Origin: Nanobdellota archaeon
GTDB taxonomy: Archaea; Nanobdellota; Nanobdellia; Pacearchaeales; JAHJTO01
Direction of reading: 5' to 3'
DNA: 64,000 bases
Assembly (NCBI GenBank): GCA_042572295.1
Contig: JBHPFA010000002.1
Span: forward strand, 180 to 64,179
The translations under genes were made by a program, and so were the position numbers. Below, piece by piece: positions 13,688 to 35,766 of this stretch. How positions within the stretch are numbered: position 1 is the stretch's first letter; every line of letters begins with the position of its first letter. Under the pieces are notes generated by a model. It saw nothing but the letters and a program-made list of their open reading frames with translations. It was not told the origin of the DNA and made no database searches.

Positions 13688-15097
13688 TTGATAGAGAGTA
13701 TGAAGATTTTGTTGATAAGTCCTAATTGCAAAAGAAAACTTGGAAAAAGTTTTAGAGTTTCTCCAGTGCTTTATCCCTTGGGTTTGGCATATCTTGCAGC
13801 AGTTTTAAGAAGAGATAAGCAAAAAGTTAAGATTTTAGATGCTGAAGCTTTGAATTTTAAAATGAAGCAAATAATGGACTATGTTGAGAGCTATAGGCCA
13901 GATGTTGTGGGATTTAGTGTAAAGACTCCTGCAGTCTATAATGTTTTTCGCATGGCCAAGAAGATTAAAGAAAAATATCCTCAAATAAAAATCGTTGTTG
14001 GTGGGCCTCATCCGTCTGCTATCCCTGAAGAATCTGCAAAGGAAGAATTTATTGATTTTGTAGTCGTCGGAGAAGGAGAATTAACGATGTTGGAGTTAGT
14101 TAATGAGTTAAATGGTAAAAAGAATTTTAAGAAAATTAATGGGCTGGTTTTTAGAAATAAAAAAAATAAAGTCATAGTTAATAAACCAAGAGAGCAAATA
14201 CATGACCTTGATGCATTGCCCTATCCTGCTTTTGATTTATTGCCCTTAGAGAAATATGTTTCTATAAATAGTAAAGACAAGAAGTTCATAAACATCTTAA
14301 CTTCTAGGGGTTGTCCTGGAAGATGTATTTTTTGTAATAAACGTGTTTTTGGTAATAATTGCCGTATGAGGAGTGCAAAGAATTTAATTCAAGAGATAGA
14401 ATTTTTGATTAAAACCTATGGTTATAAGGAATTCCATATTGTAGATGATTTATTTACAAATGACAGACAAAGAGTAATTGATTTTTGTAATCTGGTTATT
14501 AAAAAGAAGCTAAGAATAAAATGGAAATGTGGTAATGGGGTGAGGGTAGGCACTATTGATTTAGAACTTTTAAGACTCATGAAAAGATCTGGTTGTTATT
14601 CTTTAAGTTATGGCATAGAATCTGGAAATCAAAAAATATTGAATAATTTAAGAAAAGGTCAAACACTGCAACAATGTAAAAATGCTGTAACTTTAACCAA
14701 AAAGGTAGGGATTGATTGTATAGGGTTTTTCATATTTGGAGGTCTTGGAGAAGATAAAAAGACAATGAGAGAAACTCTTAACTTTGCAAAGAGTCTTGAT
14801 TTGGATTTGGCGCAATTTATGATAGTAGTGCCTTATCCTGGAACACTAATTAGAGAAGTTATAGAGCAAGAAGGAAAATTACTTGTAGATAGTTGGGAAA
14901 AATATGATCATCTTGAAGGAAAAGCTATTTTTGAGCATGGGAAACTTAAAGCTAAAGATATGGAAGAAATGCATAAAAAGGCATATAAGGAATTTTATAG
15001 AAGACCCCAATATCTCCTAAAAAAGATTTTTAAGAAAAGAACTTGGAATGAATTTAAAGGTGAATTAAGTGGCTTTTTAGCATTATTAGAGATGTAA
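13688..15097 (+). CDS. B12-binding-domain radical SAM enzyme (class B)
   Basis: An N-terminal Rossmann-like B12-type domain (VGFSVKTPA...VVGGPHPSA) is followed by TSRGCPGRCIFCN (CxxxCxxC). The likely true start is ATG 13700, which lies ~25 nt after a TATA-like CATTTTTAAACC. Confidence 0.8.
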   Translation: MIESMKILLISPNCKRKLGKSFRVSPVLYPLGLAYLAAVLRRDKQKVKILDAEALNFKMKQIMDYVESYRPDVVGFSVKTPAVYNVFRMAKKIKEKYPQIKIVVGGPHPSAIPEESAKEEFIDFVVVGEGELTMLELVNELNGKKNFKKINGLVFRNKKNKVIVNKPREQIHDLDALPYPAFDLLPLEKYVSINSKDKKFINILTSRGCPGRCIFCNKRVFGNNCRMRSAKNLIQEIEFLIKTYGYKEFHIVDDLFTNDRQRVIDFCNLVIKKKLRIKWKCGNGVRVGTIDLELLRLMKRSGCYSLSYGIESGNQKILNNLRKGQTLQQCKNAVTLTKKVGIDCIGFFIFGGLGEDKKTMRETLNFAKSLDLDLAQFMIVVPYPGTLIREVIEQEGKLLVDSWEKYDHLEGKAIFEHGKLKAKDMEEMHKKAYKEFYRRPQYLLKKIFKKRTWNEFKGELSGFLALLEM

Positions 15098-15106
15098 AGT
15101 ATTCTT

Positions 15107-16708
15107 TTAATCCCACTTAAGCTCGTAAATAATTAAAAGTGGTTGTTTTTGTTCTTGGTCTGCAAAAAATGCTTGGACAGGAATTGCTGATTCATTATGG
15201 CGTTGTGGCCAATCATAAGCCCATTGTGGTGTAAATCCTGGTTCAAATGAGGAAATAACTAGATACTTTGGTTTATTCTCATTAATTTCTTCATTAAACT
15301 TGGTTTCATTTTCATTAGAGCCATTTACATAAAAGTCATAGACTTTTCTTTCTGCGTAATATGCATGCTGAGTTATAGAAGCAGTCACTATTGTGTCTTC
15401 TGGTGAAGAATGTTCTTTCATCCATACTCCTGAATCCCTTACAGGGGCATAAGAGTCTATTTTCATTTTTGTAATTCCATCTGCATGCAGGACTTGGTTA
15501 TACATGCCAAGACCCAAGACTAAAAGTATCAAAAGAACAACTATTTTTTTATTTTTCAAAAAATATCCAATGTAATTAGAGGTCGTTATGATCCCTTTAC
15601 TTGTAAAGACAAGCATTGCAGTTAATAATGGAAAAAACCACCTATATTCAAATGATTGAGCCCTTATTAAAAATATGAAGATAATGAAAACTGAAATCAT
15701 TAAAAGGAAATTAAACAAATCTGCTTTCAACTCTAAATCTTCTTTGTCAACTTTACAGTGCATTAATTTCTTTTTGTTTATAAAAAAGTCGACTAGAACC
15801 AATATTAAGCCGATTATAATGAAATAAAACAATATTGAAGGGAGCCAAGGTATAACTGATTGATAAAAACCATGGAATACTGTTAAATTACTCCAAGCGA
15901 GTGGTCTTTGAGTGTTTACATAAAAACTAACTAAAGTCTGCAACCGCTCTGAAAATATGAATGCTAAAACGGCAGCAACACCGAGAGAGACTATAGATAT
16001 TAAATACTTTTTATTGAGAAGGTGTGATTTGTTGATCCATAAAACAAAAAGTATTATTGCTGGAATAAAAGGCATGTTTCCTGGCCTAAAGATTACTGAA
16101 ATTATAGATAATAACGCAATAATTAACAAAGAATATTTTGGTTTAATGAAGAAAGCTTCCTCTTTTTTAAGATAAACTTTGAATAGTAGATAAAATGCTA
16201 AAAACTGAAATATCAAAGCAAAATTCTCAGTATGGAATCTGTTACTATAAAAGACATGTTCCCATAAAACTGTTATTATTGCTGTTGAGATTAATGCAAC
16301 CCTTCTATCCTTATACATTTCTTTTATACATAAGTAAGTTAAAAAAATAACAATCAATGAAGGAATGAATAATGCTATAAAACGTATTACTACTTCATTA
16401 TTTATTCCTAAAATGAAGAATGCAGACATTAGTAAAGGATATCCTGGAAGTCTTATACTCTCTAATTGAAAATCCATGATTCCTGCATAAGATTTTGCTG
16501 AAGACATGTATACTCCTTCATCAAACCATAATGGTTGGTCCCTTGTAATAAAGAAATAATAGAAACGAATTATGAAAGCGAATAAAAATATACCTAGTAA
16601 TGAAAGATTATAGGGATTTTTGAGCCAGTTCTTTATCTTTTCTCCTATCCTTGGAGCTTTAACATTATGAATTTCTTTTTCTTCTATTTTTTTTTCTTCT
16701 TCAGTCAT
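15107..16708 (-). CDS. GT-C fold glycosyltransferase (ArnT/PMT, GT39/GT83-like)
   Basis: 533 aa, polytopic. A first-loop acidic motif (QPLWFDEGVYMSS) and a soluble C-terminal domain match the architecture of polyprenyl-phosphate-sugar dependent transferases. Confidence 0.6.
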   Translation of the reverse strand: MTEEEKKIEEKEIHNVKAPRIGEKIKNWLKNPYNLSLLGIFLFAFIIRFYYFFITRDQPLWFDEGVYMSSAKSYAGIMDFQLESIRLPGYPLLMSAFFILGINNEVVIRFIALFIPSLIVIFLTYLCIKEMYKDRRVALISTAIITVLWEHVFYSNRFHTENFALIFQFLAFYLLFKVYLKKEEAFFIKPKYSLLIIALLSIISVIFRPGNMPFIPAIILFVLWINKSHLLNKKYLISIVSLGVAAVLAFIFSERLQTLVSFYVNTQRPLAWSNLTVFHGFYQSVIPWLPSILFYFIIIGLILVLVDFFINKKKLMHCKVDKEDLELKADLFNFLLMISVFIIFIFLIRAQSFEYRWFFPLLTAMLVFTSKGIITTSNYIGYFLKNKKIVVLLILLVLGLGMYNQVLHADGITKMKIDSYAPVRDSGVWMKEHSSPEDTIVTASITQHAYYAERKVYDFYVNGSNENETKFNEEINENKPKYLVISSFEPGFTPQWAYDWPQRHNESAIPVQAFFADQEQKQPLLIIYELKWD

Positions 16709-18630
16709 TTTGTTGATTCAATACGCTCCCAAGCGTCTTGATAAGTTTTATTCTTTAGCTTGATGTCCCAATGAACATTAACCCACATATATAATCTTGC
16801 AAAAGCTAGTTGCATAGTCCAAAATGCTTCTTTAAGACTTTTGGGATAACTCAATAACCAAATGATTCCTTTAGCTTCATTTGTGAAGTTCTTAACTCTT
16901 GGAGTCGTCTTAGTGTCAACATATTTCTCAAGCGTTTCATGAGCCTTGCTTGTCCTTATCTTTTGAGTTATCCAATCTTTCCAATTACTTACATTTGTAA
17001 CATAAACGTGTGCTTTATCAGAATATCCAATTTTATATCCTCTCTCCCAAAAGGAATAGGGAATTACAGAATCTTCAGCTACATCCAAAGGTATCTGATC
17101 TATTTTGTTCTTTCTAAATGCAAATAAATATCCAGAGCATTCTATGAAAGAATTTGAAGCAGATGCGTTTTTTCTCAGTAGGTGGGCAGCATAAAATAAA
17201 AAGTTCGCCCAGTAACCATACTTTGTTTTCTTATCTTCAACAGGAACAGGCCTTCCAGTAGCAGCTCCAATTTCTGGATCATAAAAAAGATTAACCATCT
17301 CTTCGATAGCGTCTTTATTTATGTAAACATCACCATCTGTCAATATAAGTAAATCAGTTTTCCATTTTTTAAAGAAGAGATTTAATGCATAACTCTTCCC
17401 TTTTCCAGGATCTTTAAAAATTTTCAATCTTTTATCTTTTTTAGCATATTTTCTTGCGATATCCAAAGTTTCTTTATCTGGAGCAGATACCACAATCTCA
17501 TAATTATGGCGTGTTCTTTGATTTAATGCTGATTTTATTGCCCTTTCTATCATTGGCTCTTTGAAAGAAGTGATTAATAATGTAACTTTTTGTGAGAGGT
17601 TTCTATTTATTGCAGTCATAATTTCCTTAACAGATATTTTCTGTATGCTTTTACAATCATGATTGTAACAAGCAACACAACGGGATTTAGCAACAACCTT
17701 TTCTCCTAAACCATACATATCCAATTCTGTAGGAGATGTAGGGCCCACAAAACAAATAGTCTTTCTCTTTAATGCAAGCGCAATATGTAATCCAAGACTA
17801 TCTGAGGTAATAAATAAGCTACACACACTGATCAAAGCAGGAAATTCAATAAGATCATTCCCACATCCAGTGGTTATTATTGGAGATTTTGATAAGCTCA
17901 TGATTTCTTTATTCCTTTCAATCTCTGCAGGACCTCCAAAAAGAAGAATTTTTGCTTTGTATTTTTTATATAACATATCTATCAGCACAGCTGTCTTTTT
18001 TGCTGAAAGGGCTTTTGGCCACCTATCTGCAGCACCAGTATTCATCCCAATAATAAGCTCGGATCTAGAAAGATTATGTCTTCTTAGAAAGTCTTTAGCA
18101 AAATCTCTTTGGCCTTTTGTCAATCTCAAAAAAGGTTCATATTTTTTAGAATCAACTCCCACTATCTCTGACATTATCTGCTTATGGGTCTTCTTATTCT
18201 TCTTTTTTAGAAGATCATTTTGAGGTTTCGGACCTATAGCAGACATATTATACCACTCTTTTGCTGTAATGGTTGGTAAAACATGTTCATCTTTGATAGT
18301 AAAACCAATAAGCTCTTTAGTATTTAGAGAATTTGCAAACTTTGTGTTTTCTTTATCTTCTTCAAGGTTTATTACGAGATCAAAAGAATGTTTTTGCAGT
18401 TTCTGCCTGTTATCCTGATCAAAAACTTCTGTTACATAAGGATTATTTGTGAATAATGGCTTGACTTTTCTATCTGTAAACCAAAAGATCTTTGGATTTT
18501 GAGAGCTATATTTTTCTTTTAAAGCTTGGGCAATAAAAGTAGTCCTCAATACATCCCCCATAGCCCCTACCTTTATTATTAAGATCCTCATATATTGGAA
18601 GGGCTTATAGAGATTTATAAACTTTCTCAA
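16705..18630 (-). CDS. Fusion protein: GT9 heptosyltransferase-family domain + GT2 domain
   Basis: The N-terminal ~340 aa carry MRILIIKVGAMGDVLRTTFIAQALKEKY and FITSDSLGLHIALAL, the GT9 ADP-heptose:LPS heptosyltransferase pattern. The C-terminal ~290 aa carry VTLLITSFKEPMIERAIKSALNQ and LILTDGDVYI (GT2). Confidence 0.75.
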   Translation of the reverse strand: MRKFINLYKPFQYMRILIIKVGAMGDVLRTTFIAQALKEKYSSQNPKIFWFTDRKVKPLFTNNPYVTEVFDQDNRQKLQKHSFDLVINLEEDKENTKFANSLNTKELIGFTIKDEHVLPTITAKEWYNMSAIGPKPQNDLLKKKNKKTHKQIMSEIVGVDSKKYEPFLRLTKGQRDFAKDFLRRHNLSRSELIIGMNTGAADRWPKALSAKKTAVLIDMLYKKYKAKILLFGGPAEIERNKEIMSLSKSPIITTGCGNDLIEFPALISVCSLFITSDSLGLHIALALKRKTICFVGPTSPTELDMYGLGEKVVAKSRCVACYNHDCKSIQKISVKEIMTAINRNLSQKVTLLITSFKEPMIERAIKSALNQRTRHNYEIVVSAPDKETLDIARKYAKKDKRLKIFKDPGKGKSYALNLFFKKWKTDLLILTDGDVYINKDAIEEMVNLFYDPEIGAATGRPVPVEDKKTKYGYWANFLFYAAHLLRKNASASNSFIECSGYLFAFRKNKIDQIPLDVAEDSVIPYSFWERGYKIGYSDKAHVYVTNVSNWKDWITQKIRTSKAHETLEKYVDTKTTPRVKNFTNEAKGIIWLLSYPKSLKEAFWTMQLAFARLYMWVNVHWDIKLKNKTYQDAWERIESTK

Positions 18631-19841: not shown

Positions 19842-20885
19842 TTGATGAGATTGGGATACCTGTTAAAACAAGCAAGATACTATAAAAAATTAGAGGGAAG
19901 TATGAACAGAATGTTTATTAATTTTCTATTTGCGAGAACCCCTTTATCTAGACTCGTGAACACTCCAATGTATAATTGGATTTACAGAAAAAGAATGGAG
20001 AAGTTTACAAAAGGGCATAATCCAACTCTTCTTACTATTGAAAACACTAATGCTTGTAATGCTAAATGTATCATGTGCCCCCATAATAAAATGAAGAGGC
20101 CAGTAAAAATCATGAGCTTGAGGGACTTTAAAAAAGTGGTAGACAAAGTTATGAAGAGTTATCCAAAAATTAAGAGGCTTACTATAACTGGATTTGGAGA
20201 GACGACAGCAGATAAAGGCTTGGTGGAAAAAATAAAGTATGTTAATAAACATTATCCTAAATTAAAAATAGATTTTTTTACAAATGGATCCTTATTCACT
20301 AAAGAATTATCCGAGGCTATATTAAAAACAAGAGTGCATCGAATAAATTTTAGTATAAATGCTATGGAAAGGAATTATAAAAAAATAACTGGTCTTGATT
20401 ACAAAAAAGTTAGAAGCAATATATTATATTTTATTAAAAGAAAAAGAGAATTAAAAAAGGAATTTCCTTTAGTAAATTTCTCACTTATGATACTCAAGGA
20501 AAATGTGGACGATATTGAAGACTTCATAAAATTATGGACTCCTTACGGAGATTCTGTAATGACCTACTTGCCTCTTGATTGGGCGAGTAATAAGAAAATA
20601 GAGACTGTAGAAAATCCTATTCAAAATAAGAAAAAATGGGCTTGCATCCCTTTGTGGCAAAGTGTGAGTGTTGATGCTGAAGGAAATGTGATTATGTGTT
20701 GTCAAGATTATGAATCTAGAGTTAAATTTGGAAATGTACTCAAACAGCCAATAAAAGAAATAATGAATAGTCCAAAATTCGAAAAAATAAGAGAATTACA
20801 TAAAAAAGGTAATTATTCAATGCCAGTTTGTAATACTTGTGATAATTGGGTCAATTCTAGTTTATGGTGGTGGGCACCTAATTAA
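19842..20885 (+). CDS. Radical SAM enzyme with C-terminal Cys-rich (SPASM/twitch-like) extension
   Basis: ENTNACNAKCIMCPH provides CxxxCxxC. The C-terminal cysteines are WACIP, MCCQDY and PVCNTCDNW. ATG 19845 lies ~25 nt after CCTTTAAAAAGC. Confidence 0.7.
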   Translation: MMRLGYLLKQARYYKKLEGSMNRMFINFLFARTPLSRLVNTPMYNWIYRKRMEKFTKGHNPTLLTIENTNACNAKCIMCPHNKMKRPVKIMSLRDFKKVVDKVMKSYPKIKRLTITGFGETTADKGLVEKIKYVNKHYPKLKIDFFTNGSLFTKELSEAILKTRVHRINFSINAMERNYKKITGLDYKKVRSNILYFIKRKRELKKEFPLVNFSLMILKENVDDIEDFIKLWTPYGDSVMTYLPLDWASNKKIETVENPIQNKKKWACIPLWQSVSVDAEGNVIMCCQDYESRVKFGNVLKQPIKEIMNSPKFEKIRELHKKGNYSMPVCNTCDNWVNSSLWWWAPN

Positions 20886-21643
20886 TTCTTTCTTGCAATA
20901 AGTACAAGAGAGTAACTAAAATAAGAATCTAGAAAAGAGCCCCTTTCTTTTTTAAGTCTTTTATAATTTCTATTCTTTCTTGTCAGTAAAAGAAATGGAT
21001 TAACATATCTAAAAGATTTGAAAAAAGAGTCTCCAATGAACTTTATTTTCCTGAGATTTAATCTTAAAGCTATTTTTTTGAGTTCTAGTCTAGAAAAAGG
21101 ATATTCTTCCCCATATTTCCATTTTTTAATTAATTGTAAAAGAGTTTTATGTAACCTATAAGGGAAACACCACTTATTTGGAACAGAAATTACAATCATT
21201 CCCTTATCATTTACCAAGTCTAAATGGGATTTAATGACTAAAGTTCTCTCTTTTCCTATAAAATGTTCTGCAAGTCCAAAAGATAAAGAAAGATCATACT
21301 TCCCTTTTAATTTAGGAGATAGTTTAAGAGCATCTGCTAAAAGAAAATTGGCCTTACACTTATTTCGCTTAAAGAATTCTTTGCTTCTTTCAAGAGCTTT
21401 TTTTGAATAGTCCAGTATAGTTACTTTAGATCCTTTCTTTGCAAATAATAAGGCATTTGTCCCCCCACCAGCACCTACTTCGATGACTTTTAAATTCTTG
21501 AAGGTCCCAAAATTTTTTAGAACTTCTTTTTCGATCCTTTGCCACCTTATCCCTTTCTCTTCTCTAATCAAATTATATCTATCTTCTTCTTCAGAAGTCT
21601 CTTTCCAAAGAGAATCCCAAAGTTGTGGAGTATTTTTTTGCAT
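20882..21643 (-). CDS. Class I SAM-dependent methyltransferase
   Basis: Motif I is VIEVGAGGGTNALLFAKKGSKVTILDYS. Confidence 0.7.
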   Translation of the reverse strand: MQKNTPQLWDSLWKETSEEEDRYNLIREEKGIRWQRIEKEVLKNFGTFKNLKVIEVGAGGGTNALLFAKKGSKVTILDYSKKALERSKEFFKRNKCKANFLLADALKLSPKLKGKYDLSLSFGLAEHFIGKERTLVIKSHLDLVNDKGMIVISVPNKWCFPYRLHKTLLQLIKKWKYGEEYPFSRLELKKIALRLNLRKIKFIGDSFFKSFRYVNPFLLLTRKNRNYKRLKKERGSFLDSYFSYSLVLIARKN

Positions 21644-22296: not shown

Positions 22297-23625
22297 TCAG
22301 GGTATTAATCTTTCGTCTAGCAATTTATAGGCCAAATCCTGGTAATGTAAAAGCTCAGGAATAGTTACGCTTGATAAGTTTATTTCAGTTTTATCATAAT
22401 AAGTTGTTTTTTCCATTTGTTCTAAATCGTCTGGATCAAGCAAGCCTTTTTCAACAGCCATCCTGTAAGCTTCTGTGCCTGGAACTGGAGTTAATAACAT
22501 GAATTTCATTTGTTCAGTGTTTAATTCCTTAGCAAAGTCTAAAGTTTGTTGAAGGGTTTCATGAGTGTCTCCAGGTAAGCCCAAAACATAACTAGTAGTT
22601 ATTGGAACTCCTTCATCTTTTAGAATCTTTACAGCATTTCTTATTTCATCTTTAGTTTCTTTCTTTTTTATTACTTTAAGCATCTCCTCATTTCCAGTTT
22701 CTACACCTATTGCTGCTGAAAGGCACCCTGATTCTTTCAGAGTATGTGCTAATTCTTGATTAACAGAATCTGCCCTAATCTGTACAATATATTTCATATT
22801 CAAACCTGAAGAGATCATCCTCTTGCCAAGTTCTATTGCTCTTTGAGGTTTAACTGCAAATTGATCATCATAGAAATAAAGGTTGTTTATGCCCTTCTTA
22901 GAAAGTGTCCCGAATTCTTCGATTACATTATCAATAGAGTGGAATCTTAATTTACGCTCCCAGGTAACCTTAGAAGCACAAAAAATACAGTCATAAGGGC
23001 AACCCCTTGTTGTAAAGATTCCTGCATGTGGCTCTTCTCCAAAAAATGCAGGGTCCTTATATTTCTTTAAGTCTAACAAATCCCAAGCAGGGCGTGGCAA
23101 TGCATCCAAATCTTTAATAAAAGCTGTTTTTGGATTAGTCATTACCTTGCCATTTTCTTTATATGCCAAATTGGGCGTTTTGGTGACATCTTGCTTAGAT
23201 TCTAAAGAGTTTAACAATTTTAAGAAAGCTTCTTCTCCTTCTCCAAGAATACCATAATCAATACCCTCATATTTGCAATCTTGGGGCCTTCCAGTAATAT
23301 GTGGACCCCCAACCATGGTTACTAGATCTTTATTGGCTTTTTTTAAGTCTCTACAAATCCTTGTAATAGTTGGAAAACGTGGAGTTAATGTAGAAAATCC
23401 TACATATTTTGCATTTTTAGATAATATCTTTTCAGCTACTTGAGGAATACTCTTGAAATCATATAATTCTAGATCTAAAACTTCTGGTTCATAAGCTCCC
23501 TTTTCTCTAATATAAGAACTTAACAGGGCTAGATTTGTTGGAGTTCTTAAAACTCCTTGTTTTTTCCATTGTTCTGATTTGTATAAGTTTGGAGCCCTTA
23601 CAAGCAATACTTTCTCCCTATCCAT
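22297..23625 (-). CDS. B12-binding-domain radical SAM enzyme (class B)
   Basis: An N-terminal B12-type domain (VGFSTLTPRF...MVGGPHITG) is followed by TTRGCPYDCIFCAS. Confidence 0.8.
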   Translation of the reverse strand: MDREKVLLVRAPNLYKSEQWKKQGVLRTPTNLALLSSYIREKGAYEPEVLDLELYDFKSIPQVAEKILSKNAKYVGFSTLTPRFPTITRICRDLKKANKDLVTMVGGPHITGRPQDCKYEGIDYGILGEGEEAFLKLLNSLESKQDVTKTPNLAYKENGKVMTNPKTAFIKDLDALPRPAWDLLDLKKYKDPAFFGEEPHAGIFTTRGCPYDCIFCASKVTWERKLRFHSIDNVIEEFGTLSKKGINNLYFYDDQFAVKPQRAIELGKRMISSGLNMKYIVQIRADSVNQELAHTLKESGCLSAAIGVETGNEEMLKVIKKKETKDEIRNAVKILKDEGVPITTSYVLGLPGDTHETLQQTLDFAKELNTEQMKFMLLTPVPGTEAYRMAVEKGLLDPDDLEQMEKTTYYDKTEINLSSVTIPELLHYQDLAYKLLDERLIP

Positions 23626-27913: not shown

Positions 27914-28456
27914 ATGGCTCGTGCAATTTTTTTAGATAGAGATGGAGTAGTATGTGAAGACACTAATATGTTTTACCAAGGAACCCCCCTCTTAAAACCA
28001 GAAGATTTCAAATGGATTCCTGGATCAAAAGAAGCATTAAAATTGCTTTCTAACTTAGAATTTAAAGTTGCTTTAGTTACAAATCAATCCATAATAAATA
28101 AAGGCCTTCTTAGCGAAGAAGAATTCTTGAAAACTAATAATTCCCTTTATGGGGAAATGTCAAAAAATAATATAAATATAGAAAGAATTTATTATTGTAA
28201 GCATACTCCTAAAGAAAATTGTGAATGTAGGAAACCAAAAATAGGACTATTAATCCAGGCAGAAAAAGAATTGGGAGTTTCTCTTAAAGATTGTTATGTT
28301 ATTGGAGACAAAACTTCTGATATAAAAATGGGGGAAGATGCTGGTTGTAAAACGATTCTCGTTAAAACAGGATATGGAGGTAGAGATGACTCTTTCGAGG
28401 TAAATCCAGATTTTATAATGGATAACCTTTATGAAGCCATTAAGATATTAAAATGA
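27914..28456 (+). CDS. gmhB: D-glycero-D-manno-heptose 1,7-bisphosphate phosphatase (GmhB, HAD family)
   Basis: AIFLDRDGVV is HAD motif I. VTNQS, the Zn-site-like CKHTPKENCECRKPKIGLL and GDKTSDIKMGEDAGC complete the match. 180 aa is the typical GmhB size. Confidence 0.8.
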   Translation: MARAIFLDRDGVVCEDTNMFYQGTPLLKPEDFKWIPGSKEALKLLSNLEFKVALVTNQSIINKGLLSEEEFLKTNNSLYGEMSKNNINIERIYYCKHTPKENCECRKPKIGLLIQAEKELGVSLKDCYVIGDKTSDIKMGEDAGCKTILVKTGYGGRDDSFEVNPDFIMDNLYEAIKILK

Positions 28457-30516
28457 AAGCACTAATACTTGCTGGAGGTTTTGGAACAAGATTAAAAGAA
28501 ATTACTAAAGGTGTTCCTAAACCAATGGCACCTATTGCAGGCAAACCCTTTTTACACCACCAAATAAGACTACTTAGAGAACAAGGAATTACAGATATAG
28601 TCCTTGCAGTGCATTATATGAGTGATAAGATAAAAGCATATTTTGGAAATGGAAAGAGACATGGCGTAGATATTTCTTATGCTGAAGAAGAAATGCCTTT
28701 GGGAACAGGTGGAGCAATAAGAAATGCAAAAAGATATCTCGGAAATAATAAATTTGCCGTATTTAATGGAGATACTTATACTGGGATGAGTATTAAGAAC
28801 TTTAATAAATTTCATGAAGAAGTTGGTGAAGACTTTAGCATGGCAGTAACTTCTCATAATGAACCAGAACATCATGAGATTATTGAAATAAAGGACAATA
28901 TGGTAAAAACTCTTCATGAAAGAGGAAAATGTCCAAAAAATCTTGAATGCTTAATAAATAGTGGGGCCTATTTATTGGAACCAAACATATTTGATTATAT
29001 CGAAGAAGGAAGAAATATTTCTCTTGAAAAGGAAGTTTTTCCGAGAATTGTTGGTGAAGGTAAATTAGCTGCTTATAAACATACAGAGTATTTTATAGAT
29101 ATTGGTAGACCTGAAACTTATAAACAATTCAAAAAAGAAATGGTTAATGCCATGTTAATGAAAAAAACAGATTCTATAAGGAGTGCTATGAAAAGAATGG
29201 ACCGAAATGAAGAAGGTCTTGTATTTATTGTAGATGAAAACGAAAAACTAACAGGGATTGTAACCCCACATTTTATCAATAGTGCATTTATTAATGGGAA
29301 AACAAACCTCGAAGATAAACTTGAAAAAGTAATGCTTACTGAAGGCTTGGCTTTTGGAAATGAAAGTGATTCTCCTGAAAAAATAGCAGAAATAATGCTT
29401 CCCCGTACAAATAGGCTTCCGATACTTAATTCTCAAGGAAAAATTACAGACATAGTTTACAGACAAGAGGTATTGGGACCAAAAGAGTCTCCGACCTATA
29501 GGGCAATTTCTCCTTTAAGAATAAGTTTTTCAGGAGGGGGGACAGATAAAGAAGATTATTTCACAAGATTTGGTACAGGGGTTGTGATAAATGCGACAAT
29601 TGACAAATATTGTCATGCGACCACCAAACTAAGGCATGATAAATTGATAAGCATAAATCCTGGTGGCGAAGATGAAGAATTGCTAGACTTGAAAAAGGAA
29701 AAATTTGAATATAACGGCAGGTGGGATCTTGCAAAAGCAGTCGTTAAAGTGATGAATCCTGATTTTGGATTCGATCTTCATGCTTATAACGATGTTCCTC
29801 CAGGAAGAGGACTTGGTTCTTCTGGAAGTTTTGCAGTAATGCTTACTGAATTGATTGGACAAATGCGTGGAGAATACTTAACAAATGATCAAATAGCTAA
29901 ATTAGCAAGAAAAGCTGAAATAGAAGAATTAAAAATAAAAGGCGGATGGCAAGACCAATATGCTGCAAAAGTGGGGGGCTTTAATTTAATGGAATTTTCA
30001 CAAAATAAAATAACTCCTTCTTCACTTGCACTTTCTCCAGAAGTTGTAAGAGAGTTAGAAGAGAGCCTATTGCTCTGTTATATTGGAAAAACACATAATT
30101 CTGGAGAAATACATGCTGAACAAGAAAAGAATTTTCAAAAAGATGAAAAAAGAATACGTGGGGGTCTTGAAAAGTTAACTTCTATCGCAACGATTATAAG
30201 AGATTCTCTAGTTTCTAAAAATCCTTCAAAAGTTGGAGAGATTGGGAATTATTTACATGAAGCTTGGTTAATTAAAAAGGGGTTAAGTGGATCTATTTCT
30301 AATAATGAAATAGATGATTTGTATAACCTTGGATTAAAAAATGGGGCTACTGGGGGGAAACTTCTTGGAGCAGGAAACGGGGGATATCTTCTCTTCTTTT
30401 CACCTCCTGAGAGAAAAAGTTTGTTGGAAAAAGAACTATATAAAAATAAAAGAGAAATAATGAAGTTCCATTTTGAGCGACAACCTGCAGGAACACAGGT
30501 TTGGCCAGTCTATTAA
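28453..30516 (+). CDS. Tri-domain fusion: sugar-1-P nucleotidyltransferase (HddC-like) + CBS pair + GHMP sugar kinase (HddA-like)
   Basis: The N-terminal [34 protein letters not shown] is the NTP-transferase domain. The middle [31 protein letters not shown]...[15 protein letters not shown] is a CBS pair. The C-terminal [12 protein letters not shown] and [15 protein letters not shown] are the GHMP kinase domain. It overlaps gmhB by 4 nt. Confidence 0.8.
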   Translation: [687 protein letters not shown]

Positions 30517-32003: not shown

Positions 32004-32022
32004 TACTTTTAATTTATCGAGA

Positions 32023-32802
32023 TTATAGTTTTTTCTTCGTACTTATGTTCCCTATTTTTCTATATATTAAGACCAAGTTTTTAAGAAATACTATAGGAGT
32101 TATTATTGACATCAATATGAGATACGTCCCAGGGATGTTGAAGACTATTGTTATAAATAAGAATGAAAAGGGGTTATTGGGCCTTAATAACTCCATAGTA
32201 TAATCCTTTACTGTTTTTATTAATCCTTTTTTCTGACCATAGGCTGTGGCAACCATATAGCTCTCTCTCATCTTGTATATTAAATCAAGTCTTTTTTCAT
32301 TTGCAAAAGTTTCGTATACTTTAAGTTTGTTGAGATTATCTAATAACAAAAAGATTGAGGTAGAGATACCTAAATACAAATAAGCAATATTTCCATTAGT
32401 GTTATAAATCCCCCACCCTAATGCCAGTACTAATAACCCTCTGTGGATATAGTGGAAAAGCCTATCAAGATATGTTCCACCAATAGTAGTTATTTTTTTT
32501 GCTTTTGCGATTTCTCCATCAACATAATCTAGTAATACTGCAAAATGATACAAAATGGCTCCAAAAACCATATAAGAATATCCTCCGAGACCTATAAAAA
32601 AACATGCAACAACTCCTAAAAATCCCCAAGTAAAACTTATTTGATTTGGTGTTAAAGGAGTAAATCTTGCAAAAATGTATGCGACATAACTTGAAAAAGG
32701 TCCTAGAATTCGAATGTTTATGGGGTGTTTACCCCAATCATCTGATGCATCTTTTATTTGCTGTAAAGTAATTTTCTTATCCATTCTTAAACAAGCCCTC
32801 AC
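32023..32802 (-). CDS. CDP-alcohol phosphotransferase-family membrane protein
   Basis: Polytopic. LDYVDGEIAKAKKITTIGGTYLDRLFH matches D-x2-DG-x2-A(R/K)-x8-G-x3-D-x3-(D), with His in place of the last Asp. It overlaps the upstream rSAM gene by 4 nt. Confidence 0.7.
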   Translation of the reverse strand: MRACLRMDKKITLQQIKDASDDWGKHPINIRILGPFSSYVAYIFARFTPLTPNQISFTWGFLGVVACFFIGLGGYSYMVFGAILYHFAVLLDYVDGEIAKAKKITTIGGTYLDRLFHYIHRGLLVLALGWGIYNTNGNIAYLYLGISTSIFLLLDNLNKLKVYETFANEKRLDLIYKMRESYMVATAYGQKKGLIKTVKDYTMELLRPNNPFSFLFITIVFNIPGTYLILMSIITPIVFLKNLVLIYRKIGNISTKKKL

Positions 32803-34274
32803 ATATATTTTTTCTTATAAATTTTACTTAACTCCAAAAATGCTTCATTTCCTTTTTGATCAAACTTTTCTGCGAGTTCAATCTTTGGCCACATTTCTTT
32901 CTGGAATCTTACGTAAAGAGGGAATGTTCTTTGAAGTCCTTTAACTTGCTCCCTGTTTAACTGGGGCATGTCCAATCCTGCATCAGAACGATAATCTCCA
33001 GCATAACCTTCTCTTGGAATGTATCCCTTTTTGACCGAATGATCCCATAAAGGGGTTCCCCTATATGCACAAAAAATATTTGTTATAAGATTATCTGCCT
33101 GACAATCCCTATTAAGTTGAATTGTATCAAAAACAAGGTCTCTTGTTTCTTCTGGGAAGCCAATTATGTTATTTGCACAAATTCTTATTCCAGATTGTCT
33201 TGCTATTTCAAATGCATTGATTATCTTTTTGTTATCCACATAACGATTAAGCATTTTCCTCCTAAACTCATCATTTCCATGTTCTAAACCAATACTAATT
33301 CCTTCACAACCTATTTCTTTTAGTTTACTTACTCTATCAAGCTTAACTGTTTCTGGCCTTGTTTCAATCCAAAAAGGCAATCCAATTTCCTTGTATCCTT
33401 TAATAAAATCATCAAATCTTTTAGGACCCATTTGTAGAAAATTTTCTGCAACAAGGTAAAGATATTCTAAACCAAACTCTTCTTTCTTAGTTTTTAATTC
33501 ACTCATGAAATTCTCTATAGATCTTTGTCTAGGGTATCTTCCTATTCCTTTGTAATGTGCTTGTAATTTATCGTTACAACAGAATGCACAATGGTAAGTA
33601 CAACCCCTATTCAATTCTACAGGGCCACTTATGTTAATCTTTCCACCCATTGGCTTAAAGAACCTTTTCTTTTCATAAATACTCCAATCTTGGTCTGGTA
33701 ATGAATCAAGATCTGCAAGTGGAGCAAGAGGATTTTTTATTATGCCTCCATCTTTCTTTAACCAAATATTATCTGTACGAGAATAATCTTCTTTTGATCT
33801 TATTTTATTTGCAAGATCGACTATTGCCTTTTCACCTTCTCCAACACAAATCATATCGATAGAATCTTCTTTTAGAATATCTTCGAGACCCATTGTTGCA
33901 TGTATTCCCCCGACAATTTTGGGAGTTTTTAAGTCTTTGATGCTATTTAATAAATTTAAAGCAATATGGTAGGTAGGCTCTACGACTGAAACTCCTATTA
34001 AATCTGGTTTAAATGAATCTATAGATTTGTGAAAATCTTTTACAAGGTTTTCTTTCTTTTCAGTTATTCCAAGCTCCTCAAGATTGGTTTCTTTTACTTG
34101 AAGAGATTCGACTCTTGCTTCATCCCCTGTTTTTTCCCTTGTTCTATAAAAAGTTGTGTCAAACAAAGCTGTTTCATGTCCCGCTTTTTTTAAACAAGAA
34201 GACAAAAGAGAAGGTCCGATAGGTATTAAATTGTCCATAAAACTATTTGCATAAACTAGAAGTACTTTTGACAT
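32799..34274 (-). CDS. B12-binding-domain radical SAM enzyme (class B)
   Basis: An N-terminal B12-type domain (IGVSVVEPTY...IVGGIHATM) is followed by LNRGCTYHCAFCCN. Confidence 0.8.
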   Translation of the reverse strand: MSKVLLVYANSFMDNLIPIGPSLLSSCLKKAGHETALFDTTFYRTREKTGDEARVESLQVKETNLEELGITEKKENLVKDFHKSIDSFKPDLIGVSVVEPTYHIALNLLNSIKDLKTPKIVGGIHATMGLEDILKEDSIDMICVGEGEKAIVDLANKIRSKEDYSRTDNIWLKKDGGIIKNPLAPLADLDSLPDQDWSIYEKKRFFKPMGGKINISGPVELNRGCTYHCAFCCNDKLQAHYKGIGRYPRQRSIENFMSELKTKKEEFGLEYLYLVAENFLQMGPKRFDDFIKGYKEIGLPFWIETRPETVKLDRVSKLKEIGCEGISIGLEHGNDEFRRKMLNRYVDNKKIINAFEIARQSGIRICANNIIGFPEETRDLVFDTIQLNRDCQADNLITNIFCAYRGTPLWDHSVKKGYIPREGYAGDYRSDAGLDMPQLNREQVKGLQRTFPLYVRFQKEMWPKIELAEKFDQKGNEAFLELSKIYKKKYM

Positions 34275-34275
34275 T

Positions 34276-35766
34276 TTAAGTTACTCTTCCCAAAATTAAA
34301 TCTGCCTTATCTCCATGTCTTTTCAGAAATTGTTTGAACTTTGATTCCCATGCTCCAGGATTTTTCTTTTTTATATATTCATTGAAAGCTGTTGTTTTTT
34401 CTATAACTAATTTCTCAAGTTCTCCTGGAGAGATTATATAATCAGCAGAAGTTGGAGGAATTTTTATTGCAACATGTTTTAGGTCCCCTTTTACTCCAGA
34501 ATCAAGATATCCTTTTTCTTTACAGATTTTATGTAATCTGGAACCAATCATTGGATGAGCAAGGAAAAGAGAGGCGCTATCAAATCCTACTTCATAAGGA
34601 TAATTGAAAGTATCTTCCATCTCTTCTCTTTTTTCTCCAGGAAATCCAACGATGAACAACCCATGAACTTGTACACCCTTATCATGACATATATCAATCA
34701 AACTTTTTACTTTTTCTTTTGATGGGACCCTTTTGTTAATTATTTCTTTTCTAACTCTTTCATTTCCAGACTCCACAGCAAAAGTAAGTTGATAGGCTCC
34801 AGATTGGGCCATTAAATCTATCATCTCTTCATCCAATGTTTGAATCATAAGCCCATTTGGAGTACACCAAGAAAGATTATAGGGTTTTAATCTTTTAAAT
34901 AATTCTTTTGCCCTAGGTTTGTGTGCTGTTAAGTTATCATCTGCAAACTGTATTTCTTTAACTCCATAATTTTTTGTTAAGTCATCAATTTCTTCAATTA
35001 TGTTATCAACAGATCTTGTCCTAAAATGATGCCCCCAATAATTTACAGTAGAACAAAAAACACAATCAAATGGACAGCCCCTAGAAGTCATAACTTGTTC
35101 AACACGGTCTTCTTTTGAGAATGGGCCAAAGGGAACTCCTATTTGGATATAACGTTCCATATTTATCATATCTCTTGCAGGTTGGGGTAAGGCATTTAAG
35201 TCTTTTATCCTATTAATTAGTGGATTTACTATGGCTTCTCCATTTTTTTTATAGGCTACTCCATCAAAAGATAAGGAAGTCTCTCCTTTATTGAGAGCCT
35301 CAAGAAGGTTTAGTGCCCTATATTCTCCTTCCCCTATCACAACATAATCTACTGATTTGTTCATTATTGATTCTTTTGGAGCAAGTGAAGGGTGTATTCC
35401 TCCCAAAACAACTGAAATATCTGGATTTATTTTTTTAACTAAATTACAATGGTCTATAGCATTTTCTTGATGAGCTGAAAACATCGAAGTTATTCCCACT
35501 ATATCTGGATTATAATCCTTTATTCTGTTGGAAATTTCCTCTTTTGATAATCCATAGGTAAGATAATCTCCATTTATACTTGTTTTATGGTATCCCTCAC
35601 AAGGGGAGTCTAAAATTTTAACATCATAGCCCTTATCTCTTAATAATGCACCCATATATAAGAAACCTAGGGGGGTTGTAAGCCTTCTTGCACTATCTTT
35701 GGGCATAGTATTCGAAGGATTCAAAAATAAGACTTTTCTATATTTACCCTTTGCCATCTTAAACAC
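34276..35766 (-). CDS. B12-binding-domain radical SAM enzyme (class B)
   Basis: An N-terminal B12-type domain (VGITSMFSAH...VLGGIHPSL) is followed by TSRGCPFDCVFCS. Only 1 nt separates it from the downstream rSAM gene. Confidence 0.8.
   Translation of the reverse strand: MFKMAKGKYRKVLFLNPSNTMPKDSARRLTTPLGFLYMGALLRDKGYDVKILDSPCEGYHKTSINGDYLTYGLSKEEISNRIKDYNPDIVGITSMFSAHQENAIDHCNLVKKINPDISVVLGGIHPSLAPKESIMNKSVDYVVIGEGEYRALNLLEALNKGETSLSFDGVAYKKNGEAIVNPLINRIKDLNALPQPARDMINMERYIQIGVPFGPFSKEDRVEQVMTSRGCPFDCVFCSTVNYWGHHFRTRSVDNIIEEIDDLTKNYGVKEIQFADDNLTAHKPRAKELFKRLKPYNLSWCTPNGLMIQTLDEEMIDLMAQSGAYQLTFAVESGNERVRKEIINKRVPSKEKVKSLIDICHDKGVQVHGLFIVGFPGEKREEMEDTFNYPYEVGFDSASLFLAHPMIGSRLHKICKEKGYLDSGVKGDLKHVAIKIPPTSADYIISPGELEKLVIEKTTAFNEYIKKKNPGAWESKFKQFLKRHGDKADLILGRVT

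What the first reader, a model, noticed from the sequence alone, without database searches (positions are those of the whole stretch)
13688..35766. Six radical-SAM enzymes, four with B12-binding domains, inside one glycan island
Seen: CxxxCxxC motifs preceded by B12-type Rossmann domains occur in 13688-15097 (CPGRCIFC), 22297-23625 (CPYDCIFC), 32799-34274 (CTYHCAFC) and 34276-35766 (CPFDCVFC). There is also a SPASM-like rSAM at 19842-20885 (CNAKCIMC) and a small rSAM at 51390-52265 (CNQNCPGC). Established: class B rSAM enzymes methylate unactivated C or P centres (GenK/GenD1 on aminoglycoside sugars, Fom3 and PhpK on phosphonates) or carry out other radical rearrangements. Inference: this density in a protein/lipid glycosylation locus predicts several radical C-methylations or carbon-skeleton edits on sugars and on the phosphonate head group. 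Such chemistry is not described for archaeal surface glycans. It also implies cobalamin dependence, which a reduced genome would probably need to satisfy by uptake.
Basis: partly seen in the sequence, partly recalled or inferred. Interest (0 to 1): 0.75.

Follow-up and report, generated by a model that had tools for sequence, protein, structure and literature searches.

The report
Radical-SAM enzymes tailoring archaeal surface glycans
A small archaeon's cell-surface sugar gene island really does carry six radical-SAM enzymes, four of the vitamin-B12 type. Two of them belong to a widespread, uncharacterised gene module that most likely edits an activated phosphonate group before it is attached to the cell surface.

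Summary
All six ORFs are radical-SAM proteins, and four have an N-terminal B12-binding Rossmann domain above Pfam's threshold. None reaches the curated cut-off of any named family, and housekeeping families (MiaB/RimO, HemN, MoaA) score far below theirs. The four B12-type proteins are only 24-32% identical to each other. Each has its own orthologues with conserved context. R1 (13688-15097) lies in the AglB N-glycosylation operon in DPANN relatives and next to a GT1 gene in an Asgard relative. The closest relative of R3 lies between an NDP-sugar dehydratase/epimerase and a DegT aminotransferase. R5 and R4 (34276-35766, 32799-34274) sit in a tight operon, Ppd-NTP transferase-R5-R4-CDP-alcohol phosphotransferase, next to a PEP mutase::nucleotidyltransferase fusion and an AEP transaminase. 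This module recurs in archaea and bacteria. R5 is found fused to the nucleotidyltransferase (three proteins) and to the transaminase (one protein). The best reading is Fom1/Fom3-like radical tailoring, probably C-methylation, of a nucleotide-activated aminoethylphosphonate before transfer to a lipid or glycan. The chemistry, actual cobalamin binding and cobalamin uptake remain untested. I rate it a new variant of a known kind, of moderate to high interest.

The parts
13688..15097 (+). R1: class-B (B12-domain) radical-SAM protein, last gene of the AglB-GT4-flippase-GT2-GT2-GT1 operon
   Evidence: Pfam B12-binding 89 bits plus Radical_SAM. Best NCBIfam hit is HpnJ, 249 bits against a 578 cut-off. 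Orthologues of 50-68% identity: L124 and L125 lie in the same STT3 operon, and L126 (Helarchaeota) lies next to a GT1 gene.
19842..20885 (+). R2: radical-SAM protein with a SPASM/twitch auxiliary-cluster domain
   Evidence: Pfam Radical_SAM plus SPASM. The C-terminal domain is closest to BtrN in the PDB (5e-11). No NCBIfam cut-off is reached.
22297..23625 (-). R3: class-B radical-SAM protein, first gene of a minus-strand trio with two class-I methyltransferases (21668-22285, 20882-21643)
   Evidence: Pfam. The radical-SAM domain is closest to AprD4 (PDB 6fd2, 1.5e-30). It is a rare subfamily; the nearest relative (50% identity) lies between an NDP-sugar dehydratase/epimerase and a DegT aminotransferase.
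32799..34274 (-). R4: class-B radical-SAM protein in the phosphonate operon
   Evidence: Pfam. AF2 model pLDDT 90, with full-length Foldseek matches to MgmA, TsrM and OxsB. Orthologues of 46-75% identity lie next to CDP-OH_P_transf, NTP transferase or Ppm cassettes in L081, L121, L123, L130 and L131.
34276..35766 (-). R5: class-B radical-SAM protein, sister family of Sden_1168, in the phosphonate operon
   Evidence: NCBIfam Sden_1168 374 bits against a 575 cut-off. AF2 model pLDDT 89.8. Orthologues lie next to Ppm/Ppd/AEPT/NTP transferase. Fusions NTP2::R5 and AEPT::R5 exist.
51390..52265 (+). R6: small radical-SAM protein overlapping the start of a GT2 gene (52225-53043)
   Evidence: Pfam Radical_SAM. 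Only the N-terminal half resembles MoaA, viperin or BlsE. The block R6/GT2e/MT4/GT2f is conserved in L081 at 57-64% identity.
38775..40496 (-). PEP mutase fused to a PF12804 nucleotidyltransferase (PntC-type architecture)
   Evidence: TIGR02320 338.6 bits, above the 319.55 cut-off. EDKIFPKRNS motif at residue 130. NTP_transf_3 domain at residues 321-439.
36520..37638 (-). Phosphonopyruvate decarboxylase
   Evidence: TIGR03297 442 bits, above the 312.5 cut-off.
37677..38789 (+). 2-aminoethylphosphonate aminotransferase
   Evidence: TIGR03301 395.8 bits, above the 360.8 cut-off.
35808..36518 (-). NTP2: stand-alone nucleotidyltransferase directly upstream of R5
   Evidence: Pfam NTP_transf_3 and NTP_transferase. 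Fused to R5 orthologues in P0021, P0033 and P0072.
32023..32802 (-). CDP-alcohol phosphotransferase family protein, overlapping the end of R4 by 4 nt
   Evidence: Pfam PF01066 30.1 bits, above the 22 cut-off. Conserved beside R4/R5 in L081, L121, L123, L129, L130 and L131.
40531..42111 (-). Polysacc_synt (MOP-type) flippase upstream of the PEP mutase gene
   Evidence: Pfam. Conserved in L081, L084 and L121.
5858..13630 (+). AglB/STT3, GT4 (AglH-like), flippase, two GT2 and one GT1 gene preceding R1
   Evidence: Pfam. The same order occurs in L124.

Best explanation
The island is the surface-glycan and phosphonate-decoration locus of a Nanoarchaeota (DPANN) archaeon. The six radical-SAM proteins are tailoring enzymes from six distinct, conserved and uncharacterised families. 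They are not housekeeping enzymes or recent duplicates.

The best-resolved part is the minus-strand operon. PEP mutase, phosphonopyruvate decarboxylase and AEP transaminase make 2-aminoethylphosphonate. A nucleotidyltransferase then activates it as a nucleotidyl (CMP-type) phosphonate; this is either the domain fused to PEP mutase or NTP2. R5 and then R4 carry out radical modifications on this activated head group. The most likely chemistry is cobalamin-mediated C-methylation after H-abstraction by 5'-deoxyadenosyl radical, as Fom3 does on CMP-hydroxyethylphosphonate made by Fom1. The CDP-alcohol phosphotransferase moves the modified phosphonyl group to a lipid or glycan hydroxyl, and the adjacent flippase exports the product.

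R1 acts within AglB-dependent N-glycan assembly, on an NDP-sugar or lipid-linked sugar. R3 acts on an NDP-sugar, together with two class-I methyltransferases. R2 is a BtrN-like dehydrogenase or epimerase candidate. R6 works with a GT2 glycosyltransferase.

Shown: domain content, curated family membership of Ppm, Ppd and AEPT, class-B fold, conserved synteny and gene fusions. Inferred: substrates, order of steps, methyl transfer and cobalamin use.
For: Domains and motifs. No named family's cut-off is reached, and housekeeping families score far below theirs. Ppm, Ppd and AEPT pass curated equivalog cut-offs, and Ppm has the EDKxxxxxNS motif. Ppm::PF12804 fusion is the PntC-type architecture described in PMC6697681.

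Operon Ppd-NTP2-R5-R4-CDPOH: the four gene junctions are 1, 41 and 1 nt gaps and a 4-nt overlap (coordinates).

Contexts of ten R5 loci (the window plus nine orthologous loci) with at least 50% identity: NTP2 adjacent in 9, AEPT in 7, CDP-OH transferase in 6, R4 in 5, and Ppm within 10 kb in 5 (a sixth contig is truncated at Ppd). At least 14 further contigs carry both R4 and R5 orthologues, judged by matching contig lengths.

Rosetta-stone fusions: NTP2::R5 three times and AEPT::R5 once. R4 is linked to a Ppm/Ppd/AEPT/NTP/CDP-OH cassette without R5 in an alphaproteobacterium.

True Sden_1168-family members also sit beside Ppm, Ppd or aminotransferase genes. The R5 clade is next to the Sden_1168 clade in the tree.

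Class-B fold of R5 and R4. R1 lies in STT3 operons in L124 and L125 and next to a GT1 gene in all four loci. R3's relative lies between NDP-sugar enzymes. R2 resembles BtrN. The R6/GT2 block is conserved.

Fom1/Fom3 precedent: PMC6697681 and PMC9204698.
Against: No member of any of the six families has been characterised, so the chemistry rests on analogy. Three R5 loci (L081, L123, L130) have no Ppm, Ppd or AEPT within 10 kb. The module may therefore also act on a phosphate ester or on scavenged AEP.

A Scalindua R4 homologue (47% identity) has no phosphonate genes nearby and lies next to an LPG-synthase-like membrane protein. The closest named family to R5 is annotated as a P-methyltransferase, not a C-methyltransferase.

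AprD4 ranks as high as the cobalamin enzymes in the fold searches, and it does not use cobalamin. No sequence criterion for cobalamin binding exists. The tree has no support values.
Confidence: 0.6

Rival explanations
1. Some or all of the four B12-domain proteins are not methyltransferases. They would use the class-B scaffold for dehydration or deoxygenation (AprD4-like), oxidation, epimerisation, ring contraction (OxsB- or HpnJ-like) or cyclisation (BchE-like) of sugars or the phosphonate. Cobalamin might not be involved.
For: R3's radical-SAM domain matches AprD4 best (1.5e-30). AprD4 is among the top Foldseek matches for R5 and R4. The top NCBIfam hits for R1, R3 and R4 are HpnJ and BchE, which are not methylases. 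The island already has four class-I methyltransferases and a TylC3-type C-methyltransferase.
Against: All four pass Pfam's B12-binding threshold. Most characterised class-B enzymes are methyltransferases (PMC12931638, PMC9204698). The closest phosphonate precedents (Fom3, PhpK, SD_1168) are methyl transferases.
Confidence: 0.25
2. R5 is a P-methyltransferase like PhpK or SD_1168 and makes a methylphosphinate head group rather than a C-methylated phosphonate.
For: The best named family is NF038361, 'Sden_1168 family B12-binding radical SAM P-methyltransferase', matched over the full length at 374 bits. R5's clade lies next to that family. NTP2 weakly resembles Sden_1164 from the same Shewanella cluster.
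Against: The score is below the 575 cut-off. The physiological substrate of SD_1168 is unknown and C-methylation is also proposed for it (PMC9204698). P-methylation needs an H-phosphinate, and no genes for making one were recognised; the cassette is a plain Ppm/Ppd/AEPT route to AEP.
Confidence: 0.1
3. R4, R5 and the CDP-alcohol phosphotransferase build a modified membrane-lipid head group (a phosphonolipid or phospholipid), not a glycan decoration.
For: The CDP-OH_P_transf family is mainly lipid head-group synthases. The best NCBIfam hits of the window protein are DIPP synthase and archaetidylinositol-phosphate synthase. The Scalindua R4 homologue lies next to LPG_synthase_TM. Some loci lack glycosyltransferases directly beside the module.
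Against: In the window, L081, L121 and L130 the module is embedded among glycosyltransferases and a Polysacc_synt flippase. L129 also has LicD, a glycan phosphotransferase. This rival differs from the best explanation only in the acceptor.
Confidence: 0.3
4. The radical-SAM genes are peptide (RiPP) maturases that happen to lie in the island.
For: B12-type and SPASM radical-SAM enzymes are typical of RiPP clusters. ApyD and RiPP C-methyltransferase models give partial hits. A Theionarchaea locus has three R1-like genes next to a PqqD gene.
Against: The window has no PqqD/RRE gene, no recognisable precursor peptide, and no protease or ABC exporter. Every neighbour is a glycan, NDP-sugar or phosphonate gene. 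The synteny of orthologues is with STT3, glycosyltransferases and Ppm.
Confidence: 0.03
5. They are housekeeping radical-SAM enzymes (MiaB/RimO, HemN/HemW, MoaA, tRNA modification).
For: Weak partial hits to these families exist.
Against: Scores are 20-70 bits against cut-offs of 180-650 and cover only the shared radical-SAM core. The genomic context is conserved with glycan genes.
Confidence: 0.02

Closest known systems
Fom1/Fom3 of fosfomycin biosynthesis (cytidylyltransferase::PEP mutase plus a cobalamin-dependent radical-SAM C-methyltransferase acting on CMP-2-hydroxyethylphosphonate)
   Same: PEP mutase fused to a nucleotidyltransferase, a phosphonopyruvate decarboxylase, and a class-B radical-SAM enzyme in one cluster. 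R5 is even found fused to the nucleotidyltransferase in relatives, which points to a nucleotidylated phosphonate as substrate.
   Different: The fused domain here is PF12804 at the C-terminus, not PF01467 at the N-terminus. An AEP transaminase is present instead of the alcohol dehydrogenase, so the intermediate is AEP and not HEP. There are two radical-SAM enzymes rather than one. A CDP-alcohol phosphotransferase and a flippase point to a cell-surface conjugate, not a free antibiotic. Sequence relationship to Fom3 was not tested.
Sden_1168 (SD_1168) family, NCBIfam NF038361
   Same: Closest named family to R5, aligned over the full length. True members also lie beside Ppm, Ppd or aminotransferase genes.
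   Different: R5 and its orthologues score 359-374 bits against a cut-off of 575 and form a separate clade. The native function of SD_1168 is itself unknown (PMC9204698).
Phosphonyl tailoring (Pnt) pathway: PntC cytidylyltransferases and LicD or phosphotransferases that decorate bacterial surfaces with AEP (Rice et al. 2019, PMC6697681)
   Same: Ppm::PF12804 fusion, Ppd, AEPT, a phosphotransferase and glycan genes. The cassette here is a member of this kind.
   Different: A term search of that paper found no methyltransferase, and the branch-point inventory (PMC8942020) mentions radical SAM once, for a Campylobacter cluster; neither describes class-B radical-SAM enzymes as part of the pathway. 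Here two of them are inserted between activation and transfer.
Sugar-modifying class-B radical-SAM enzymes of antibiotic and lipid pathways (GenK, GenD1, Fms7, MoeK5; HpnJ on hopanoid-linked glucosamine) and AprD4 and BtrN
   Same: R1 and R3 share the architecture and sit among NDP-sugar and glycosyltransferase genes. HpnJ is the best profile hit of R1 and R3. AprD4 is the best structural-sequence hit of R3's core, and BtrN of R2's auxiliary domain.
   Different: All scores are far below the family cut-offs. The context is primary cell-surface N-glycosylation (an AglB operon) in archaea, not secondary metabolism.

Membership tests
Class-B (cobalamin-dependent) radical-SAM enzymes | CX3CX2C radical-SAM core | tested here: met
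   for all six proteins.
Class-B (cobalamin-dependent) radical-SAM enzymes | N-terminal Rossmann-type B12-binding domain (PF02310) above the gathering score | tested here: met
   R1 89, R3 62.5, R4 48.5 and R5 80.5 bits against a 32.1 cut-off. Absent in R2 and R6.
Class-B (cobalamin-dependent) radical-SAM enzymes | Full-length fold like the cobalamin-bound structures (TsrM, TokK, OxsB, MgmA, CysS) | tested here: met
   R5 and R4 models, TM 0.60-0.69 and E 1e-23 to 1e-14. R1 and R3 were not modelled. AprD4, which does not use cobalamin, matches equally well.
Class-B (cobalamin-dependent) radical-SAM enzymes | Actual binding and use of cobalamin | not testable with these tools
   No sequence criterion is known. 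Needs biochemistry.
Sden_1168 family P-methyltransferase (NF038361) | Score at or above the curated cut-off of 575 bits | tested here: not met
   R5 373.8 bits. Its Riflebacteria orthologue scores 359, and true members score 587-1037.
PhpK family P-methyltransferase (TIGR04479) | Score at or above 600 bits | tested here: not met
   R1 144.5, R3 147.7, R5 126.6 and R4 70.6 bits.
HpnJ (TIGR03471) | Score at or above 577.6 bits | tested here: not met
   R1 249.4, R3 169.3 and R5 169.7 bits.
BchE (TIGR02026) | Score at or above 481 bits | tested here: not met
   R1 221.8, R5 143.9, R3 140.4 and R4 110.6 bits.
AprD4 diol dehydratase (NF033070) | Score at or above 500 bits | tested here: not met
   R3 120.8 bits, radical-SAM domain only.
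Fom3-type C-methyltransferase | Sequence membership | not tested
Fom3-type C-methyltransferase | Partner enzyme that nucleotidylates the phosphonate substrate, encoded with PEP mutase | tested here: met
   Ppm::NTP_transf_3 fusion and NTP2. NTP2::R5 fusions.
MiaB/RimO methylthiotransferases, HemN/HemW, MoaA (housekeeping) | Curated cut-offs (251-357, 205-653, 231-325 bits) | tested here: not met
   At most 60, at most 39 and at most 70 bits respectively.
SPASM/twitch radical-SAM enzymes (BtrN-like) | C-terminal auxiliary Fe-S domain | tested here: met
   R2: PF13186 56 bits against a 21.5 cut-off. BtrN 5e-11. NF033640 twitch model scores 62 against 170, so that model's cut-off is not met.
AEP phosphonyl-tailoring (Pnt) cassette | PEP mutase with the EDKxxxxxNS motif, Ppd and AEP transaminase above curated cut-offs, and a nucleotidyltransferase fused to or beside Ppm | tested here: met
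   TIGR02320 338.6 above 319.55, TIGR03297 442 above 312.5, TIGR03301 395.8 above 360.8. Motif found. PF12804 domain found.

The most novel reading that the evidence does not exclude
R5 and R4 define a widespread, two-enzyme, cobalamin-dependent radical step. It sits between nucleotidyl activation and transfer in cell-surface phosphonate tailoring. It would produce C-alkylated or otherwise rearranged aminoethylphosphonate head groups that have not been reported on any glycan or lipid. The module is shared by DPANN, Asgard and Theionarchaea archaea and by Omnitrophota, Riflebacteria and Alphaproteobacteria. Separately, R1 would be the first radical-SAM enzyme operating inside the archaeal AglB N-glycosylation pathway. 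Genome-reduced symbionts would then depend on externally supplied corrinoids to build their surface.
Probability: 0.4. Interest if true: 0.75.

Novelty: new variant of a known kind. Interest (0 to 1): 0.6.

Why it matters
Cell-surface phosphonates are a large and poorly understood sink of biological phosphorus. The published tailoring scheme has three steps: activation by PntC, transfer, and export. A conserved pair of class-B radical-SAM enzymes between activation and transfer would add new head-group chemistry to that scheme. It would also give the orphan SD_1168-like enzymes a physiological setting. For archaeal biology, radical-SAM genes embedded in AglB operons of DPANN archaea, and next to glycosyltransferase genes in an Asgard archaeon, predict N-glycan sugars with unactivated-carbon modifications made without oxygen. 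If cobalamin is truly required, surface biogenesis in genome-reduced symbionts would be tied to corrinoid supply from hosts. The families are well populated (hundreds to thousands of homologues), which makes them tractable targets for enzymology.

Tried and rejected
1. I looked up the window's own R5 protein (maximal ORF and the NCBI version) in the contig index. It is not on record. The rest of the 162-kb contig and genome could therefore not be searched for btuFCD or cob genes. No such gene is among the window ORFs that were scanned.

2. The genome-contig scan with an R5 alignment returned mostly distant paralogues of 39% identity or less, and only one orthologue. The metagenome scan gave four orthologous loci.

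3. The SD_1168 primary paper (PMC4362910) is not held.

4. I looked for a sequence rule for cobalamin binding in a 2025 review and found none.

5. The housekeeping hypothesis is rejected on scores.

6. The RiPP hypothesis is rejected for lack of a precursor, RRE or exporter, and because of the glycan synteny.

7. Recent duplication is rejected as the source of the density. The four B12 proteins are 24-32% identical and fall into four clades.

8. Rfam and tRNA scans found no riboswitch and nothing that marks the island as mobile.

9. Literature searches for C-methylated AEP, for DPANN plus phosphonate, and for AglB plus radical SAM found nothing relevant. The library lacks most subscription journals.


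Full report
**Setting.** The window is 32% G+C and archaeal. Ribosomal-protein and SecY genes lie at 55-2841, and RpoD (Rpb3-type, Pfam-confirmed) at 58341-59123. The neighbouring small ORFs at 55411-60455 look like ribosomal-protein genes but were not scanned. These genes flank a roughly 48-kb island at 5858-54363. NCBI names the identical proteins 'B12-binding domain-containing radical SAM protein [Nanoarchaeota archaeon]', on a 162-kb contig.

**Island content.**
- AglB/STT3, an AglH-like GT4, two Polysacc_synt flippases and about 14 glycosyltransferases.
- dTDP/GDP-sugar epimerases, reductases and dehydratases, and an HddC::HddA-like heptose-activation fusion.
- A TylC3-type C-methyltransferase and four class-I methyltransferases.
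- SecDF.
- A complete 2-aminoethylphosphonate (AEP) cassette.

**Observation.** It is confirmed.
- All six ORFs contain Pfam Radical_SAM (E 1.6e-17 to 1.7e-26).
- Four carry an N-terminal B12-binding domain above the gathering score. I call them R1 (13688-15097), R3 (22297-23625), R4 (32799-34274) and R5 (34276-35766).
- R2 (19842-20885) has a SPASM domain.
- R6 (51390-52265) is a bare core.
- The motif strings are exactly those reported.
- AlphaFold2 models of R5 and R4 are confident (pLDDT 89.8 and 90.0). They superpose over their full length on TsrM, MgmA/QCMT (9CCB), TokK, CysS and OxsB.
- They also superpose on AprD4, which has the same two-domain shape but does not use cobalamin. The fold is therefore class B, but cobalamin binding itself is not proven. 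A recent review offers no sequence rule for it.

**Not housekeeping, not duplicates.**
- None of the six reaches the curated cut-off of any NCBIfam model.
- MiaB/RimO, HemN/HemW and MoaA score at most 60, 39 and 70 bits against cut-offs of 180-650.
- The four B12-type proteins are only 24-32% identical to one another.
- Each groups with its own orthologues from other organisms in a distance tree (no support values).
- The class as a whole is very large. R3 alone has 60,390 cluster representatives at E of 0.001 or below.

**R5 and R4: a conserved module tied to phosphonate tailoring.**

The local operon runs on the minus strand (coordinates):
- flippase 42111-40531
- PEP mutase::PF12804 nucleotidyltransferase 40496-38775
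- phosphonopyruvate decarboxylase 37638-36520
- nucleotidyltransferase NTP2 36518-35808
- R5 35766-34276
- R4 34274-32799
- CDP-alcohol phosphotransferase 32802-32023

The junctions from Ppd to the phosphotransferase are gaps of 1, 41 and 1 nt and a 4-nt overlap. The AEP transaminase is convergent at 37677-38789. Ppm, Ppd and the transaminase pass the curated equivalog cut-offs, and Ppm has the diagnostic EDKIFPKRNS motif. A Ppm::PF12804 fusion is the PntC-type architecture of bacterial surface phosphonate tailoring (PMC6697681).

R5 has 1,559 homologues at E of 1e-10 or below, and R4 has 837. Orthologues of 46-75% identity occur in Nanoarchaeota, Promethearchaeia, Theionarchaea, Omnitrophota, Riflebacteria, Brocadiales/Scalindua and Alphaproteobacteria.

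I examined ten R5 loci with at least 50% identity: the window plus nine orthologous loci.

| Neighbour of R5 | Loci out of 10 |
|---|---|
| NTP2-type nucleotidyltransferase | 9 |
| AEP transaminase | 7 |
| CDP-alcohol phosphotransferase | 6 |
| R4 | 5 |
| Ppm within 10 kb | 5 (a sixth contig is cut at Ppd) |

- An Omnitrophota operon reads flippase-Ppm::NT-Ppd-R5-R4-AEPT-NTP2-(R4-like)-CDP-OH transferase-MT-...-(R5-like)-GT2-MT-GT1.
- An alphaproteobacterium has Ppm::NT-Ppd-AEPT-NT-CDP-OH transferase divergent from AP_endonuc_2-R4, without R5. Each enzyme is therefore linked to the cassette independently.
- R5 occurs as a fusion behind the NTP2-type nucleotidyltransferase in three separate protein clusters, and behind the AEP transaminase in a fourth.

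These Rosetta-stone fusions are the strongest evidence that R5 works directly before or after nucleotidyl activation of AEP.

**Closest named relative of R5.**
- It is the Sden_1168 family: 374 bits over the full length, against a cut-off of 575.
- True members from Streptomyces and a cyanobacterium score 587-1037 bits and also sit beside Ppm, Ppd or aminotransferase genes.
- SD_1168 transfers methyl to a phosphinate in vitro. Its physiological substrate is unknown, and C-methylation is also considered (PMC9204698).

**Mechanism proposed (inference).** The steps are as follows.
1. AEP is made by Ppm, Ppd and the transaminase.
2. AEP is converted to a nucleotidyl (CMP-type) phosphonate.
3. It is modified by R5 and then by R4.
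4. The modified phosphonyl group is transferred by the CDP-alcohol phosphotransferase to a lipid or glycan hydroxyl and flipped outward.

By analogy with Fom1/Fom3, the likeliest chemistry is H-abstraction by 5'-deoxyadenosyl radical followed by methyl transfer from methylcobalamin to carbon. In that pathway a cytidylyltransferase::Ppm fusion supplies CMP-hydroxyethylphosphonate to a class-B C-methyltransferase.

Caveats:
- Three loci (L081, L123, L130) have the R4/R5 genes plus the transferase (and NTP2 in two of them) but no Ppm within 10 kb. The module may also accept a phosphate ester or scavenged AEP.
- A Scalindua R4 homologue has no phosphonate neighbours.
- Non-methylating class-B chemistry cannot be excluded.

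**R1.**
- It ends the AglB-GT4-flippase-GT2-GT2-GT1 operon.
- Orthologues of 50-68% identity are mainly from Nanoarchaeota and Pacearchaeota, with one from Helarchaeota.
- L124 repeats the synteny PRPP synthase-SpoIIM-STT3-GT4-flippase-GT2-R1-GT1.
- L125 has R1 and two more B12 genes in an STT3 locus.
- In Helarchaeota, R1 sits beside a GT1 gene among NeuB and epimerase genes.
- R1 is adjacent to a GT1 gene in all four loci.
- Its best profile hit is HpnJ (249 bits against 578). HpnJ acts on a lipid-linked amino sugar and clusters with Fom3 and MoeK5 in published networks.
- I infer a radical modification of an NDP-sugar or a lipid-linked sugar during N-glycan assembly.

**R3, R2 and R6.**
- R3 heads a trio with two class-I methyltransferases. 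It is a rare subfamily. Its nearest relative (50% identity) lies between an NDP-sugar dehydratase/epimerase and a DegT/EryC1 aminotransferase. Its core is closest to the diol dehydratase AprD4. Deoxygenation is therefore as plausible as methylation.
- R2's auxiliary domain is closest to BtrN, an aminocyclitol dehydrogenase.
- R6 overlaps a GT2 gene. The block R6/GT2/MT/GT2 is conserved at 57-64% identity in L081.

**Density.** The clustering is a lineage-spanning trait and not chance.

| Locus | Radical-SAM genes |
|---|---|
| L081 | 8 in 21 kb |
| L121 (Omnitrophota) | 5 B12-type in 21 kb |
| L125 | 4 B12-type in 21 kb |
| L130 | 4 in 21 kb |

**Comparison with the literature.**
- The phosphonate-tailoring papers describe nucleotidyl activation and phosphotransfer. 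They do not describe class-B radical-SAM enzymes as part of the pathway. The only mention found is a 'radical SAM' gene next to ppm-ppd in Campylobacter.
- No paper in the searchable library combines AglB, N-glycosylation, archaea and radical SAM. None combines DPANN with B12 and radical SAM.
- The library omits most subscription journals, so this is absence of evidence only.

**Verdict.**
- The specific chemistry and the cobalamin-uptake corollary remain untested.
- I rate it a new variant of a known kind. The enzyme class and the phosphonate cassette are both known. They are combined here in an undescribed, widely conserved module, with a further class-B enzyme embedded in archaeal N-glycosylation operons.

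Noticed in passing
window 62949-63809 (-), with 5S rRNA at 61979-62090: An ORF hits Pfam FmrO (63.5 bits). This is the 16S rRNA methyltransferase family known from aminoglycoside producers and resistance. It lies in an archaeon, next to a lone 5S rRNA gene.
   Followed up: no
window 27914-30516 and 16705-18630: A HAD phosphatase, an HddC-like nucleotidyltransferase::HddA-like GHMP kinase fusion, and a GT9 (heptosyltransferase)::GT2 fusion. Together they suggest a GDP-heptose route feeding the archaeal glycan.
   Followed up: partly
window 42161-46069 (-): A TylC3-type NDP-hexose C-methyltransferase (Methyltransf_13/14) with RmlD-like and epimerase/dehydratase genes. A conventional, non-radical route to a C-branched sugar sits in the same island.
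   Followed up: no
protein P0069: An R5 orthologue is interrupted by an intein/HNH insertion between its B12 domain and its radical-SAM core.
   Followed up: partly
L122 8923-11491, L131 9154-11488, window 25554-26282: In the two bacterial loci examined, the R4 homologue is directly preceded by an AP_endonuc_2 (xylose-isomerase-like TIM barrel) gene. The window has one such gene 6.5 kb from R4. It may be a functional partner.
   Followed up: no
L123 3340-7546: In a Theionarchaea contig, three R1-like B12 radical-SAM genes followed by a PqqD gene (a RiPP-like arrangement) lie right beside the CDP-OH transferase-R4-NTP2-R5 module.
   Followed up: no
proteins P0365, P0367, P0371: Giant proteins of about 2,100-2,300 residues contain up to four B12 radical-SAM-like stretches.
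   Followed up: no
window 3721-8515 compared with L124 124-6536: The island starts at the same place in a relative (PRPP synthase ... SpoIIM-STT3). In the window the island lies between SecY/prefoldin and the RpoD gene cluster. It is therefore a stable chromosomal locus and not an obviously mobile element. tRNA genes lie at 51095-51274 and 55070-55155.
   Followed up: partly
window 38775-38789: The AEP transaminase gene (+) overlaps the 3' end of the convergent PEP mutase gene (-) by 15 nt.
   Followed up: no
window 48398-50152 (-): The SecD-like protein carries N-terminal PDZ domains.
   Followed up: no
window 35808-36518 (-): NTP2 gives a weak hit (41 bits) to NF038362 'Sden_1164 family'. 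The Shewanella cluster that holds Sden_1168 may therefore have a parallel pair of a nucleotidyltransferase-like protein and a B12 radical-SAM enzyme.
   Followed up: no
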